From assembly GCF_057098645.1 (NCBI RefSeq), contig NZ_CM169472.1: 64,000 nucleotides of DNA; one strand, written 5' to 3'. How positions within the stretch are numbered: position 1 is the first letter of the stretch; the number at the start of each line of letters is the position of its first letter. The notes under the pieces were generated by a model. That model worked only from the letters and a program-made list of their open reading frames with translations, did not search any database and was not told where the DNA came from. Positions 33,681 through 54,503 of the stretch are shown here, piece after piece. A program made the translations under genes and the position numbers.

Positions 33681-33825
33681 GAGGCCTTTGCTGCGACTGC
33701 CATGTTCGGGTTGCAGCATCGCACACTCTCCAACATGAAATGGCTAAATGGATTATTGTTGCGTAGGAAGGAACAATAATGATAGTGTTCCCAGAGAAGG
33801 AACGCTACTGAGAGTAAAGACACTA

Positions 33826-34110
33826 ATGAAAATGGCCAATCATCCCCGCCCGGGGGACATTATTCAGGAATCACTGGACGAACTTAATGTCAGCCTGCGC
33901 GGGTTTGCCAGAGCAATGGAAATTGCTCCCTCAACGGCAAGCCGATTGCTGACCGGAAAAGCAGCTTTGACGCCAGAAATGGCAATTAAACTTTCCGTGG
34001 TGATCGGCAGTTCGCCGCAAATGTGGCTGAATCTGCAAAACGCCTGGAGTCTGGCAGAGGCTGAAAAAACGGTGGATGTGTCGCGATTACGTCGTCTGGT
34101 TGCGCAATAA
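33826..34110 (+). CDS. yddM: HTH-type (HigA/XRE-like) putative transcriptional regulator YddM
   Basis: 94 aa from [22 protein letters not shown] track gives a longer 120 aa frame starting 33748. Confidence 0.75.
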
Positions 34111-34315
34111 AAAATGGCGCCTTTTACAGCGCCATTTGAAACTGATGACAAACGCAACATTGCCTGATGCGCTACGCTTATCAGGCCTACACGTTCACTG
34201 CAATCTATTGGATTTGAACGGTTTGTAGGCCGGATAAGGCGTTCACGCCGCATCCGGCATGAACAAAGCCTACGTTGTCTACAATATGAAAATGGCGCCT
34301 TTTACAGCGCCATTT
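34111..34315. repeat. BIME/REP cluster flanked by a duplicated terminator-like hairpin (AAAATGGCGCCTTTTACAGCGCCATTT at both ends)
   Basis: Two inverted REP-like motifs (GCCTGATGCGCTACGCTTATCAGGCCTAC and GTAGGCCGGATAAGGCGTTCACGCCGCATCCGGC) between two copies of the same ~27-bp hairpin. Confidence 0.6.
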
Positions 34316-34337
34316 TCAGCTTAAAGTTCAAAAGAGA

Positions 34338-34991
34338 TTATATCCCTTCTTCACTCTCTTTTTTCGCTTCTGCCTTCTCGATTTCACGATACCAGCGCGG
34401 ATGGTGTTTCTTCGCCCAGCGACGGCTCACCTTCCCTTCGATCATCCCTTTAATCGATCCTTTCACCCAGAATGCCATATACATATGGATCAGGATGGCG
34501 TGGATCAGGATGATACCCGCAGCCGCGTGGATCAGCAGGCTGTAGCGAACAACCTGCATCGGGAAGTACTGCGCAAAGTACGGACGCCAGATAATCACCC
34601 CGGTCACCAGCAGCACGAAAATCATGCTCATGATCGACCAGAACATCATCTTTTGCCCGGCGTTGTACTTACCGACATCCGCCACTTTATGCTCATTGCC
34701 TTTTAATACTTCGACAATGTTTAACAGCCACGGAATATCTTTCTTATCCGGGATGTTGTGATGCACAAAACGCACAAACATAAACATCAGTGCGACGAAA
34801 ATCGCAATGCCGAAGAATGGGTGCAAAATGCGTCCCATCTGCGGCGTACCGAAGGTTTGCGTCAGCCATTGCAGCGTCGGGAAGAAGAACGAAATCCCGG
34901 ACAGCGCCACCAGGAAGAAGCAAATCACCACGGTCCAGTGACAGGCGCGATCAATAAATTTGGTGCGCACAATCATTTTCGACTTACTCAT
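34338..34991 (-). CDS. fdnI: Formate dehydrogenase-N cytochrome b556 gamma subunit
   Basis: 217 aa from [12 protein letters not shown]; multi-pass membrane protein. Confidence 0.92.
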
Positions 34992-52668: not shown

Positions 52669-53562
52669 ATGAAACCGCAGGTTTACCACGTCGATGCTTT
52701 TACCTCTCAACCATTTCGCGGCAATTCTGCCGGTGTTGTTTTCCCCGCCGATAATCTTAGCGAAGCGCAAATGCAGCTTATCGCCCGCGAATTAGGTCAT
52801 TCGGAAACTGCTTTTCTGCTGCACAGCGACGACAGCGATGTGCGCATCCGCTACTTTACGCCAACGGTTGAAGTTCCGATTTGTGGTCACGCGACAGTAG
52901 CTGCGCACTATGTACGTGCGAAGGTGTTAGGTTTAGGAAATTGCACGGTCTGGCAAACATCGCTGGCAGGAAAACATCGCGTGACTATCGAAAAGCACCA
53001 CGATGGTTATCGTATTTCGCTGGAACAAGGTACGCCGGGCTTTGAGCCACCGCTGGAAGGTGAAACACGTGCGGCGATTATCAACGCGCTTCATCTCACT
53101 GAGGACGATATTCTGCCAGGCTTGCCAATTCAGGTGGCAACAACAGGACACTCAAAAGTGATGATCCCGTTGAAACCAGAAGTGGATATCGACGCCCTTT
53201 CGCCTGATCTTGCTGCGCTGAGCGCTATCAGCAAACAGATTGGCTGCAATGGTTTCTTCCCATTCCAGATCCGCCCAGGCAAAAACGAAACCGATGGTCG
53301 TATGTTCTCGCCTGCGATTGGTATTGTGGAAGATCCGGTGACTGGCAATGCCAATGGCCCGATGGGTGCATGGTTGGTACATCACAACGTATTGCCCCAC
53401 GATGGCAACGTGTTGCGTGTTAAAGGCCATCAGGGGCGCGCATTGGGGCGTGACGGCATGATTGAAGTGACGGTGACAATTCGTGATAACCAACCGGAAA
53501 AAGTCACCATTTCAGGCACAGCGGTGATTTTGTTTCATGCCGAATGGGCAATTGAACTCTGA
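52669..53562 (+). CDS. yddE: PhzF-family isomerase-like protein
   Basis: 297 aa. Confidence 0.9.
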   Translation: MKPQVYHVDAFTSQPFRGNSAGVVFPADNLSEAQMQLIARELGHSETAFLLHSDDSDVRIRYFTPTVEVPICGHATVAAHYVRAKVLGLGNCTVWQTSLAGKHRVTIEKHHDGYRISLEQGTPGFEPPLEGETRAAIINALHLTEDDILPGLPIQVATTGHSKVMIPLKPEVDIDALSPDLAALSAISKQIGCNGFFPFQIRPGKNETDGRMFSPAIGIVEDPVTGNANGPMGAWLVHHNVLPHDGNVLRVKGHQGRALGRDGMIEVTVTIRDNQPEKVTISGTAVILFHAEWAIEL

Positions 53563-53565
53563 AAC

Positions 53566-53650
53566 CGTTGTCTGATGCGCTTCGCCTGTCAGGTCTACAA
53601 CCGGGCTAATGTATGCCGGATAAGGCGTTTACGCCGCATCCGGCAACCTG
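53566..53650. repeat. REP/BIME element between yddE and nhoA
   Basis: REP-like palindromic motifs including GCCGGATAAGGCGTTTACGCCGCATCCGGCA. Confidence 0.55.
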
Positions 53651-53657
53651 ACATAAA

Positions 53658-54503
53658 TTATTTTCCCGCCTCCGGGTGCGTATCAAACGCCGCCATCACC
53701 AGCGCTAACTCATCCACGGTAAAGCCATGTTTCGCATCATCCACGCCCAGACCAAACTGTTCTTGCATCACGGCATATAACGACGCCACATCCGGTAGAT
53801 TTCGCTGCTCCACCGCGTGCCCATTTTCATAATGGGTAAAATGAAAATTGGTCAGTGTCAGCTTGCCGCCGTCCGGTAAATGGCGGCACATCAGCAAATG
53901 ATGGCGAAAATGCGACTGCGGCCAGTGCGCCGACCAGAAATTGCCCATCACATAATCGCTTTGTTGCTGCTCGCAGAGATCAAAACGGTACATCGACTGC
54001 CAGTGCTGATGATGATTAAACTGCAACACCCAATTATCACCCTCCTGCAACAACCGATACTCTCCGTGTGGCGTGGTCTGCACGAGATCGGGAACTAAAC
54101 GAATCGGCGCGGTTAGCGTCTGCCCACCGAAACCGACATCAGCAATCCATTTTTCCTCTTCCAGTTCCACCAACAGCAAACGATGGGTGCGCGGCGGTAA
54201 TGCTGGCGGATTTGATAACACTACGCGCCCTAACAAGCTGCGAACGTTAAACCCCAGCTCGCGTAACACCCGCTCAAACACGCCATTCTGCTCAAAACAG
54301 TAACCGCCACGACGGGCTATCACCAGTTTCTCTTCCAGCGATTGATCATCAAGCTGCATTTCCCTCGGCAGCAAAACGTCGAGGTTTTCAAACGGAATGG
54401 TGCAATTGTGTTTCAGGTGCAATGCACGAAGCGTATCAATATTGACCGCAGCAGTTCCCGACCAGTTAATACGGGCAAAATAGTGATTCAGAATGGGCGT
54501 CAT
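53658..54503 (-). CDS. nhoA: N-hydroxyarylamine O-acetyltransferase
   Basis: 281 aa; arylamine N-acetyltransferase catalytic Cys motif RGGYCFE. Confidence 0.92.
   Translation of the reverse strand: MTPILNHYFARINWSGTAAVNIDTLRALHLKHNCTIPFENLDVLLPREMQLDDQSLEEKLVIARRGGYCFEQNGVFERVLRELGFNVRSLLGRVVLSNPPALPPRTHRLLLVELEEEKWIADVGFGGQTLTAPIRLVPDLVQTTPHGEYRLLQEGDNWVLQFNHHQHWQSMYRFDLCEQQQSDYVMGNFWSAHWPQSHFRHHLLMCRHLPDGGKLTLTNFHFTHYENGHAVEQRNLPDVASLYAVMQEQFGLGVDDAKHGFTVDELALVMAAFDTHPEAGK

What the first reader, a model, noticed from the sequence alone, without database searches (positions are those of the whole stretch)
34111..34315. REP/BIME element inserted within a duplicated terminator hairpin between yddM and fdnI
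The same ~27-bp hairpin sequence (AAAATGGCGCCTTTTACAGCGCCATTT) occurs at both ends of a ~150-bp segment containing two inverted REP-like palindromes. This looks like a mosaic element inserted into, or duplicating, the bidirectional terminator shared by the convergent yddM and fdnI genes.
Basis: seen in the sequence. Interest (0 to 1): 0.35.

Follow-up and report, generated by a model that had tools for sequence, protein, structure and literature searches.

The report
BIME-1 repeat flanked by duplicated terminator
A known 151-base E. coli repeat element (BIME-1) sits between yddM and fdnI with a copy of their shared terminator hairpin on each side; strains lacking the element have one hairpin, and other BIME-1 copies show the same footprint.

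Summary
The 27-nt sequence AAAATGGCGCCTTTTACAGCGCCATTT occurs exactly twice (34111-34137, 34289-34315; none expected by chance). The two copies bracket a full-length 151-nt BIME-1: inverted Y REP, L linker, Z1 REP and conserved end motifs.

The locus varies among 5,426 complete E. coli genomes.
- About 44% have no BIME-1 here; the sequenced examples carry a single hairpin.
- About 37% have one unit.
- About 17%, including K-12, have two tandem units and three hairpins.
- Rarer alleles carry a hairpin deletion (strain B), IS200C or IS1397.

Citrobacter outgroups have one hairpin and no BIME-1. E. albertii already has the filled form. The exact 27/27 identity is confined to 354 genomes (listed examples: O157:H7, O55:H7, O145). 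Elsewhere the left hairpin differs at 3-5 positions.

The flanking duplication is not peculiar to this locus. Seven of 13 BIME-1 loci examined have the local hairpin duplicated against both ends. At three of these the empty allele has exactly one hairpin (duplications of 21-23 nt).

I read this as a target-site duplication set by the hairpin, with the joints 2-3 nt 3' of the G+C stem on each strand. The enzyme is unknown. The element is known; I could not find the footprint described, but the key 1997 paper was unreadable here.

The parts
33826..34110 (+). yddM coding sequence (HigA-family antitoxin, 94 aa), ending in TAA at 34108-34110
   Evidence: Translation; RefSeq annotation of the identical genome (H1) and of the other loci.
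34111..34137 (.). Terminator hairpin, left copy (left target-site duplication). Stem 34112-34120 / 34129-34137, loop CTTTTACA.
   Evidence: Exact 27-nt repeat. Folds on both strands. On the - strand it is the only site that passes the terminator scan, with tail TTTATTGCGC.
34138..34288 (.). Full-length BIME-1 element (151 nt)
   Evidence: nhmmer against a profile of 8 BIME-1 copies, which included this one: E = 1.7e-47, model positions 1-152. The K-12 copy is 85% identical to the entD-fepA BIME-1 over about 160 nt.
34138..34161 (.). Left terminal motif GAAACTGATGACAAACGCAACATT (family consensus GAGACTGATGACAAACGCAAAACT)
   Evidence: Alignment of 8 copies. It is an imperfect inverted repeat of the right end, 12 of 15 positions.
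34162..34190 (-). Y-type REP in inverted orientation (GCCTGATGCGCTACGCTTATCAGGCCTAC)
   Evidence: Sequence; arm of inverted repeat I2; sub-threshold Rfam ES036 match at 34183-34224. The type assignment follows the description in PMC3333891 plus recalled consensus.
34191..34224 (.). L linker with a degraded IHF-like site (ATCCAATAGATTG on the - strand)
   Evidence: Aligns with the conserved linker of the family, tgcaatatattgaatttgca. By eye the IHF consensus match is 11/13 here and 12/13 in the family consensus.
34225..34259 (+). Z1-type REP (GTAGGCCGGATAAGGCGTTCACGCCGCATCCGGCA)
   Evidence: Sequence; inverted repeat I4; sub-threshold Rfam naRNA4 match at 34228-34264, E = 1.3e-4.
34260..34288 (.). 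Right terminal motif TGAACAAAGCCTACGTTGTCTACAATATG (family consensus TGAACAAAGCGCACTTTGTCAACAATCTG)
   Evidence: Alignment.
34289..34315 (.). Terminator hairpin, right copy (right target-site duplication). The extended stem is 34287-34298 / 34307-34318.
   Evidence: Its loop resembles the single hairpin of Citrobacter sp. Awk 4 and NCU1 (GGCGCCTTTT(T)CAGCGCC), so this is probably the original copy.
34338..34991 (-). fdnI coding sequence (formate dehydrogenase-N gamma subunit); stop codon at 34338-34340
   Evidence: ORF list; RefSeq annotation.

Best explanation
Window 34138-34288 is a full-length BIME-1, a non-autonomous, nearly palindromic repeat element of the REPIN type. It lies in the hairpin terminator shared by the convergent genes yddM and fdnI, and one copy of that hairpin abuts each of its ends. 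This is a target-site duplication whose length is set by the hairpin rather than by a fixed enzyme stagger.

Shown:
- Strains without the element have exactly one hairpin, with the same outer flanks.
- The same footprint occurs at six other BIME-1 loci.
- At three of those loci the empty allele has one hairpin.

Inferred mechanism: the element is joined 2-3 nt 3' of the G+C stem on each strand. The two joints are therefore offset by the length of the hairpin, and gap repair copies the hairpin. The REP-associated Y1 transposase (TnpA-REP, also called RAYT) is the obvious candidate enzyme but was not tested.

Inferred later history: the two hairpin copies act as direct repeats for unequal recombination or slippage. 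That accounts for the 0-, 1- and 2-unit alleles and for overwriting of the left hairpin by the right-hand type in the window's lineage (listed examples O157:H7, O55:H7, O145), which gives the exact 27/27 identity.

Inferred consequence for expression: each gene keeps a hairpin just after its stop codon, but with only 3-4 U after the stem. The full U-tract stays with the distal copy. Some transcripts of either gene should therefore run through the BIME-1 and end at the far hairpin.
For: Anatomy of the window.

Alleles at this locus: empty single-hairpin alleles L002, L048, L049, L050 and L005, plus L004 with IS200C; one-unit alleles; the two-unit K-12 allele. A total of 3,039 of 5,426 genomes carry at least one unit.

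Outgroups: six Citrobacter genomes have one hairpin and no BIME-1.

Generality: hairpins are duplicated against both ends at fbp-downstream L107 (23/23 exact), L054(-), yqjG-yqjF, ymdF-rutG, prohibitin-tkt and artJ-rlmC.

Filled versus empty alleles at other loci:
- yqjG-yqjF: filled in 78 genomes.
- ymdF-rutG: filled in 1,734 genomes.
- prohibitin-tkt: filled in 1,213 genomes.
- In each case the empty allele holds one hairpin, giving duplications of 23, 22 and 21 nt.

Hairpin adjacency: a perfect hairpin of at least 7 bp abuts 9-11 of 17 BIME-1 ends, against about 1% of intergenic-like positions in the window (P about 1e-14 to 1e-18).

Joint symmetry: if the element's terminal A is assigned to the target, the yddM-fdnI, yqjG-yqjF and prohibitin-tkt duplications become symmetric palindromes, A2-3 + stem + loop + stem + T2-3.

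Window-type junction: restricted to 354 genomes.
Against: No transposition event was observed and no enzyme was tested.

At this locus the filled state is shared with E. albertii and a divergent Escherichia lineage, so polarity within E. coli is unresolved.

The hairpin of the empty allele differs from both copies of the filled allele at 3 positions, so it is not a simple recent product of either insertion or excision.

Five of 13 loci have a hairpin at one end only and one has none, so duplication is not obligatory.

Four of the seven two-sided loci (yqjG-yqjF, ymdF-rutG, prohibitin-tkt, artJ-rlmC) came from BLAST queries that included hairpin flanks. The unbiased estimate is therefore 3 of 9 loci.

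The rare yqjG-yqjF copy has no paralogue above 93% identity, so no donor copy was identified.

The effect on termination is read from sequence only.
Confidence: 0.75

Rival explanations
1. The polymorphism within E. coli reflects excision, not insertion. The hairpin-BIME-1-hairpin arrangement was already fixed in the ancestor of E. coli and E. albertii. The roughly 44% of genomes without it lost one unit (BIME-1 plus one hairpin) by slippage or recombination between the two hairpin repeats, helped by the palindromic element between them. This changes the polarity within E. coli but not the origin of the duplication.
For: E. albertii, E. coli E69 and the divergent SCPM-O-B-8794 genome all carry the filled form, with the same junctions and the same left/right loop difference. 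All five empty alleles with an intact loop share one hairpin sequence across different flank backgrounds, including a strain that keeps the upstream toxin gene as a frameshifted pseudogene. The literature reports 'excisions of a whole BIME-1' (abstract of Bachellier 1997 as I recall it; that paper is cited in PMC1187871 for BIME-1 presence/absence among isolates). Unit number clearly changes here: 0, 1 or 2 units.
Against: The empty allele's loop (TTCTTAAA) is 3 changes from either copy, so it is not a simple chimera. Citrobacter has the single-hairpin state, so an empty ancestor existed at some point. E. albertii flanks are only about 3.5% diverged in yddM, so transfer of the filled allele between species is possible.
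Confidence: 0.45
2. The duplication was made by replication template switching rather than by a transposase. A nascent strand that had just copied the hairpin jumped to a BIME-1 at another locus and copied it. It then returned upstream of the hairpin through A/T microhomology and copied the hairpin a second time.
For: The duplication length varies with the hairpin (21-27 nt), which no fixed-geometry transposase would produce. Hairpins are known sites of fork pausing and template switching (general knowledge). The same locus shows hairpin-interior inversions typical of template switching: the loop flip in L005 versus L002 and the flipped Z1 REP in L052. Junctions have 1-3 nt of A or T ambiguity.
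Against: The element boundaries are the same to within 1-3 nt at all 13 loci, GAGACTG...CAATCTG(A). That is expected for defined element ends but not for microhomology-driven copying from varied donors. The joints lie symmetrically 2-3 nt from the stem on both strands. One-sided loci also use the same element ends.
Confidence: 0.2
3. The two events were separate. Either the hairpin first duplicated in tandem and a BIME-1 later landed between the copies, or a BIME-1 landed beside the hairpin and the hairpin was later copied to its other side.
For: K-12 shows that the BIME-1-plus-hairpin unit can duplicate in tandem. One-sided arrangements exist at other loci, and E. coli B shows they can arise by deletion.
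Against: None of the alleles I sequenced at any locus has two adjacent hairpins without a BIME-1. Seven independent loci would each need the same two-step history ending with hairpins flush against both element ends.
Confidence: 0.05

Closest known systems
BIME-1 (also called RIP or RIB elements) of E. coli
   Same: One Y and one Z1 palindromic unit in inverted orientation, separated by the conserved long L linker that often holds an IHF site. About 140-150 bp, extragenic, at 3' ends of transcription units, and present or absent among isolates (PMC3333891, PMC1187871). The window element aligns end to end with the family.
   Different: BIME-1 is described as occurring as single copies (PMC3333891), yet K-12 has two tandem copies here, each with a hairpin. 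A review states that REPs 'do not display MITE signatures' (PMC3184786). Here the element has imperfect terminal inverted repeats and a flanking target duplication.
REPIN elements with their RAYT (TnpA-REP) transposase
   Same: Two inverted REPs plus a spacer that fold into one long hairpin. They are thought to be mobilised in trans by a Y1 HUH transposase (PMC3337134, PMC2817692).
   Different: No target site or insertion footprint is described for REPINs in the papers I could read. The presence and role of a RAYT were not tested here.
IS200/IS605-family insertion sequences
   Same: They are related to the presumed mobilising enzyme, act on single-stranded hairpin DNA and join at a set distance from a hairpin. 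An IS200C copy sits at the 5' foot of this same hairpin in some strains.
   Different: This family inserts 3' of a short target sequence without target duplication (PMC2817692 background). That fits the one-sided BIME-1 loci but not the two-sided ones.
Repeat duplication at CRISPR spacer integration (Cas1-Cas2), as an analogy only
   Same: Staggered joining at the two borders of a partly palindromic repeat of about 28 nt, followed by gap repair, leaves the insert flanked by two copies of the repeat (general knowledge).
   Different: The enzyme, insert and biology are unrelated. No Cas proteins are implicated. This is a resemblance in outcome, not membership.
Class C group II introns
   Same: They insert just after intrinsic terminator stem-loops and recognise the structure rather than the sequence (recalled from Robart et al. 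2007, not checked here).
   Different: They are retroelements that insert on one side only, without duplicating the hairpin.

Membership tests
BIME-1 | One Y and one Z1 palindromic unit in opposite orientation | tested here: met
   34162-34190 (GCCTGATGCGCTACGCTTATCAGGCCTAC) and 34225-34259 (GTAGGCCGGATAAGGCGTTCACGCCGCATCCGGCA) are in inverted orientation. The Y and Z1 type assignment rests on PMC3333891 and recalled consensus sequences.
BIME-1 | Conserved long L linker between the two units, frequently with an IHF site | tested here: inconclusive
   A 34-nt linker aligns with the family linker. The IHF consensus WATCAANNNNTTR is matched 11/13 here and 12/13 in the family consensus, by eye only. 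Binding was not tested.
BIME-1 | Full-length similarity to other BIME-1 copies, including the outer motifs | tested here: met
   nhmmer E = 1.7e-47 over model positions 1-152 (the profile included this copy). The K-12 copy is 85% identical to the entD-fepA copy.
BIME-1 | Single copy per locus | tested here: met
   There is one copy in the window. The feature is not met in K-12 and about 17% of genomes, which have two tandem units.
BIME-1 | Extragenic, and present or absent among isolates | tested here: met
   It lies in the 227-nt yddM-fdnI spacer and is present in 3,039 of 5,426 genomes.
Bidirectional intrinsic terminator | G+C-rich stem-loop with an A-tract before it and a T-tract after it, so that it works on both strands | tested here: inconclusive
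   The hairpins fold on both strands. Only the left copy read on the - strand passes the terminator scan. The proximal copy for each gene has only 3-4 U after the stem, whereas the empty allele has U4 on the + strand and U7 on the - strand.
Bidirectional intrinsic terminator | Transcript 3' ends map to the U-tract | not testable with these tools
   I found no 3'-end data for fdnI or yddM. PMC6061677 has no supplementary files held.
MITE-like transposable element | Terminal inverted repeats | tested here: met
   GAGACTGATGACAAA against the reverse complement of the right end, CAGATTGTTGACAAA, matches at 12 of 15 positions.
MITE-like transposable element | Target-site duplication shown by comparing filled and empty sites | tested here: met
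   Four loci have filled and empty alleles, with duplications of 27, 23, 22 and 21 nt. The length varies with the hairpin, unlike classical MITEs.
REPIN with RAYT | A cognate RAYT transposase in the same genome that mobilises the element | not tested
   I did not look for a RAYT gene in the 64-kb window, and the rest of the genome was not available. No assay was possible.

The most novel reading that the evidence does not exclude
BIME-1 elements integrate specifically at the foot of intrinsic-terminator hairpins. They join 2-3 nt 3' of the G+C stem, and when this happens on both strands the whole hairpin is duplicated. That would be a structure-measured target duplication of variable length (21-27 nt). 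It would give REP/BIME elements a defined target and insertion footprint, features that a review says they lack. It would also explain why these elements sit at the 3' ends of transcription units without destroying termination.
Probability: 0.45. Interest if true: 0.6.

Novelty: already known. Interest (0 to 1): 0.42.

Why it matters
How REP/BIME elements spread has been open since the 1980s. No transposition has been seen in vivo, and in the papers I could read no target site or footprint is described. Matched filled and empty alleles at four loci now give a concrete prediction that can be tested. The target would be a terminator hairpin, the joints would lie 2-3 nt beyond the stem on each strand, and the hairpin would be duplicated.

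The arrangement also suggests why such insertions are tolerated: both neighbouring genes keep a hairpin next to their stop codon. In addition, the duplicated hairpins make the locus unstable, which explains a common length polymorphism between K-12, B, O157 and other strains.

For the window alone this is an ordinary, catalogued kind of repeat.

Tried and rejected
- Rfam gave only sub-threshold matches to REP-derived families (naRNA4, ES036) and nothing for the hairpins.
- I tested whether the differing loops of the two hairpin copies are inversions of each other. They are not at any locus. Loops also vary between strains (ymdF-rutG right loop TAATC versus TAACC), so fast loop change is the simpler reading.
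- I looked for a donor copy of the rare yqjG-yqjF element. The best paralogue is 93% identical, so neither a donor nor recency can be claimed.
- The fbp-downstream example (L107) is not E. coli; its flanks do not match any E. coli genome. No population data could be obtained for it.
- A scan of viral contigs with an internal BIME-1 pattern returned only the entD-fepA copy again.
- The 15-mer scan of metagenomes was mostly chance matches; 13 of 120 loci were real BIME-1 copies.
- The RefSeq K-12 record shows no REP features at this locus.
- Bachellier 1997, Boccard and Prentki 1993, and Gilson 1991 could not be read, so I cannot exclude that the hairpin duplication was described there.
- No 3'-end mapping data were found.
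- I rejected chance and the idea of two independent terminators, because of the 27/27 identity, the empty alleles and the recurrence at other loci.

Full report
**Observation.** The sequence AAAATGGCGCCTTTTACAGCGCCATTT occurs at 34111-34137 and 34289-34315, 178 nt apart. These are the only two matches in the 64-kb window even with three mismatches allowed, and shuffles gave none. The first copy starts immediately after the yddM stop codon (yddM 33826-34110, +). The second ends 22 nt before the fdnI stop codon (fdnI 34338-34991, -). Gene names come from the RefSeq annotation of a genome identical over the region, E. coli O145 RM9872. Each copy folds into a 9-13 bp hairpin on both strands, at -13.6 to -20.8 kcal/mol. 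Read on the - strand, the left copy is the only site that passes a simple terminator scan.

**What lies between the copies.** The 151 nt at 34138-34288 hold:
- an inverted Y-type REP (34162-34190);
- a 34-nt linker;
- a Z1-type REP (34225-34259);
- conserved outer motifs at both ends.

A profile built from eight copies, including this one, matches it end to end (E = 1.7e-47). The K-12 copy at this locus is 85% identical to the copy between entD and fepA. This is a full-length BIME-1 as defined in the literature: one Y and one Z1 unit, a long L linker that often holds an IHF site, and a size of about 140 bp (PMC3333891, PMC1187871). The family consensus runs from GAGACTGATGACAAACGC to GCGCACTTTGTCAACAATCTGA. 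The two ends are imperfect inverted repeats, matching at 12 of 15 positions. Rfam gave only sub-threshold matches to REP-derived RNAs.

**The locus is polymorphic.** I compared it with 5,426 complete E. coli genomes. A total of 3,039 carry at least one unit. Percentages below are estimates from evenly spaced rows of the ranked hit lists.

| Allele | Approximate share | Example |
|---|---|---|
| No BIME-1 at this locus (a single hairpin in all six sequenced) | 44% | GF47 (AAAAATGGCGCTTCTTAAAGCGCCATTTT, 49-nt spacer) |
| One unit | 37% | the window |
| Two tandem units, three hairpins | 17% | K-12 |
| Right hairpin removed by a 34-nt deletion between AAA repeats | rare | E. coli B |
| IS200C at the 5' foot of the hairpin in an otherwise empty allele | rare | FDAARGOS_448 |
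| IS1397 inside the Z1 REP | rare | MP1 |
| Tn3-family transposon truncating yddM | rare | 19SZHZ663Rt |

**Polarity.** Six Citrobacter genomes with yddM next to fdnI have one hairpin and no BIME-1. Two of them have a loop (GGCGCCTTTT(T)CAGCGCC) close to the fdnI-side copy in E. coli. A single-hairpin ancestor therefore existed, and the fdnI-side copy is probably the original.

However, E. albertii, E. coli E69 and a divergent 'E. coli' genome (SCPM-O-B-8794) already carry hairpin-BIME-1-hairpin, with the same junctions and the same difference between left and right loops. All five empty alleles with an intact loop share one hairpin sequence, which differs from either copy of the filled allele at three positions. 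I cannot decide whether the E. coli empty alleles are retained ancestral sites or old precise excisions. Both readings fit.

**The exact 27/27 identity is secondary.** In most strains the yddM-side hairpin reads GGCAC(C/T)TTATAAAGCGCC and the fdnI-side hairpin reads GGCGCCTTTTACAGCGCC. The window-type junction, with a right-hand-type hairpin directly after yddM, occurs in 354 genomes; all the listed examples are O157:H7, O55:H7 or O145. It matches the internal junction of the K-12 two-unit allele. The window allele is most simply explained in one of two ways: loss of the first unit from a two-unit array, or conversion of the left copy by the right.

**The footprint recurs at other BIME-1 loci.** I collected BIME-1 copies in several ways:
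- a 15-mer scan of metagenome contigs;
- BLAST hits in E. coli genomes;
- a 40-kb stretch around one further BLAST hit.

Of 13 distinct loci, seven have the local hairpin duplicated flush against both ends of the element:
- yddM-fdnI;
- downstream of fbp in a non-E. coli enterobacterium (23/23 exact);
- a second copy on contig L054;
- yqjG-yqjF;
- ymdF-rutG;
- prohibitin-tkt;
- artJ-rlmC.

These are shown. Five further loci have a hairpin against one end only, and entD-fepA has none.

Four of the seven two-sided loci (yqjG-yqjF, ymdF-rutG, prohibitin-tkt, artJ-rlmC) came from BLAST queries that included hairpin flanks. The unbiased fraction is therefore 3 of 9. In the window, about 1% of intergenic-like positions abut a perfect hairpin of at least 7 bp. 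Among BIME-1 ends the figure is 9-11 of 17 (P about 1e-14 to 1e-18).

**Filled and empty alleles at three more loci.**

| Locus | Genomes with the element | Hairpins in the empty allele | Duplication |
|---|---|---|---|
| yqjG-yqjF | 78 | one | 23 nt |
| ymdF-rutG | 1,734 | one | 22 nt |
| prohibitin-tkt | 1,213 | one | 21 nt |

In each case the outer flanks of the empty allele continue those of the filled allele. If the element's terminal A is assigned to the target, the yddM-fdnI, yqjG-yqjF and prohibitin-tkt duplications become symmetric palindromes: two or three A, the G+C stem, the loop, the stem, and two or three T. The joints therefore lie 2-3 nt 3' of the stem on each strand, inside the T-tract, even where the possible A-T pairing runs further.

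**Mechanism (inferred).** A duplication whose length tracks the hairpin (21-27 nt) implies that the two joints are positioned by the structure, not by a fixed enzyme stagger. The simplest model has three steps:
1. The element is joined at the 3' foot of the hairpin on both strands.
2. The hairpin is left single-stranded on each side of the element.
3. Gap repair copies it.

Joining on one strand only would give the one-sided loci. That outcome is what the related IS200/IS605 transposases produce. An IS200C copy at the foot of this very hairpin in some strains is at least compatible with this. TnpA-REP (RAYT) is the natural candidate enzyme (PMC3333891, PMC2817692) but was not tested.

Template switching at a stalled fork is the main rival. 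It fits the variable length and the hairpin-interior inversions seen at this locus: the loop flip in L005 and the flipped Z1 REP in L052. It fits less well with element ends that are constant to within 1-3 nt at all 13 loci.

**Afterlife of the duplication.** Two direct repeats flanking a near-palindrome are a classic substrate for slippage and unequal exchange. That accounts for the 0-, 1- and 2-unit alleles here. BIME-1 is described as occurring as single copies (PMC3333891), so the K-12 tandem pair, built on the hairpin repeats, is an exception.

**Consequence for expression (inferred from sequence).** In the empty allele the hairpin is followed by U4 on the yddM strand and U7 on the fdnI strand. 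After insertion the copy proximal to each gene has only 3-4 U after the stem, and the full U-tract stays with the distal copy. Some transcripts should therefore read through the BIME-1, where REP stems can act as decay barriers or attenuators (PMC6061677). I found no 3'-end data for these genes.

**Relation to what is known.** The element, its presence/absence polymorphism and IS1397 targeting of BIMEs are all known (PMC1187871, PMC3333891). I did not find a description of a hairpin-length target duplication. [quoted passage not shown] The papers most likely to mention it, Bachellier 1997 and Boccard and Prentki 1993, could not be read. I therefore class the feature as already known and flag the footprint as a possibly undescribed property.

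**Verdict.** For the window alone this is an ordinary BIME-1. The added value is the general, testable insertion footprint.

Noticed in passing
window 33681-33825; loci L009, L011, L051 (1-46 or 1-277): yddM is an orphan antitoxin in the window. Some strains (UPEC957C, GABEEC10, N64, MP1) have a RelE/ParE-family toxin gene ending at the yddM start codon. The window has an unrelated 145-nt spacer after adhP, and similarity to the toxin-bearing allele begins only 5 nt before the ATG.
   Followed up: partly
L002 562-590 versus L005 488-516: Among empty alleles the hairpin interior is inverted: GGCGCTTCTTAAAGCGCC versus GGCGCTTTAAGAAGCGCC, which are exact reverse complements. This is a loop-flip polymorphism.
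   Followed up: partly
L052, about 670-740: In strain CDE2901 the Z1 REP is inverted in place (GCCGGATGCGGCGTGAACGCCTTATCCGGC instead of GCCGGATAAGGCGTTCACGCCGCATCCGGC), while its surroundings are unchanged.
   Followed up: no
L004 562-1275: IS200C (IS200/IS605 family) is inserted in the A-run between the yddM stop codon and the single hairpin of an otherwise empty allele, that is, at the hairpin's 5' foot. It appeared in 2 of 40 evenly spaced rows.
   Followed up: partly
L008 about 560-962: In strain MP1, IS1397 interrupts the loop of the Z1 REP of this BIME-1, as expected from its known specificity for palindromic units.
   Followed up: no
L003 about 740-756: E. coli B has lost the fdnI-side hairpin through a 34-nt deletion between two AAA repeats. 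That leaves a hairpin on one side of the BIME-1 only, and shows how one-sided loci can derive from two-sided ones.
   Followed up: partly
L174, L175, L177, L054, L187 and the window locus: Where a hairpin is duplicated around a BIME-1, the stems of the two copies are identical or nearly so, but the loops differ at 2-5 positions (for example TTTC/ATTT, TTACC/TAATC, AACC/ACAT). The exceptions are L107 and the window lineage. Loops also vary between strains. Fast loop change is likely, but the cause is not established.
   Followed up: partly
L016, L018, L019 (2786-2850): Three Citrobacter species (L016, L018, L019) have a single REP between the yddM stop codon and the single hairpin. REP insertions beside this terminator have therefore happened independently in another genus.
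   Followed up: no
window 53554-53660: A second REP cluster lies here. It includes a unit with TTTAC in its loop (GCCGGATAAGGCGTTTACGCCGCATCCGGC) and gives only a partial match to the BIME-1 profile.
   Followed up: no
L012 2783-3300: In Escherichia sp. MOD1-EC7003, yddM ends in TAG and is followed by at least 500 nt of other sequence that I did not characterise, before an AAAAAATGGC motif like the start of the hairpin. This is a different arrangement of the same neighbourhood.
   Followed up: no
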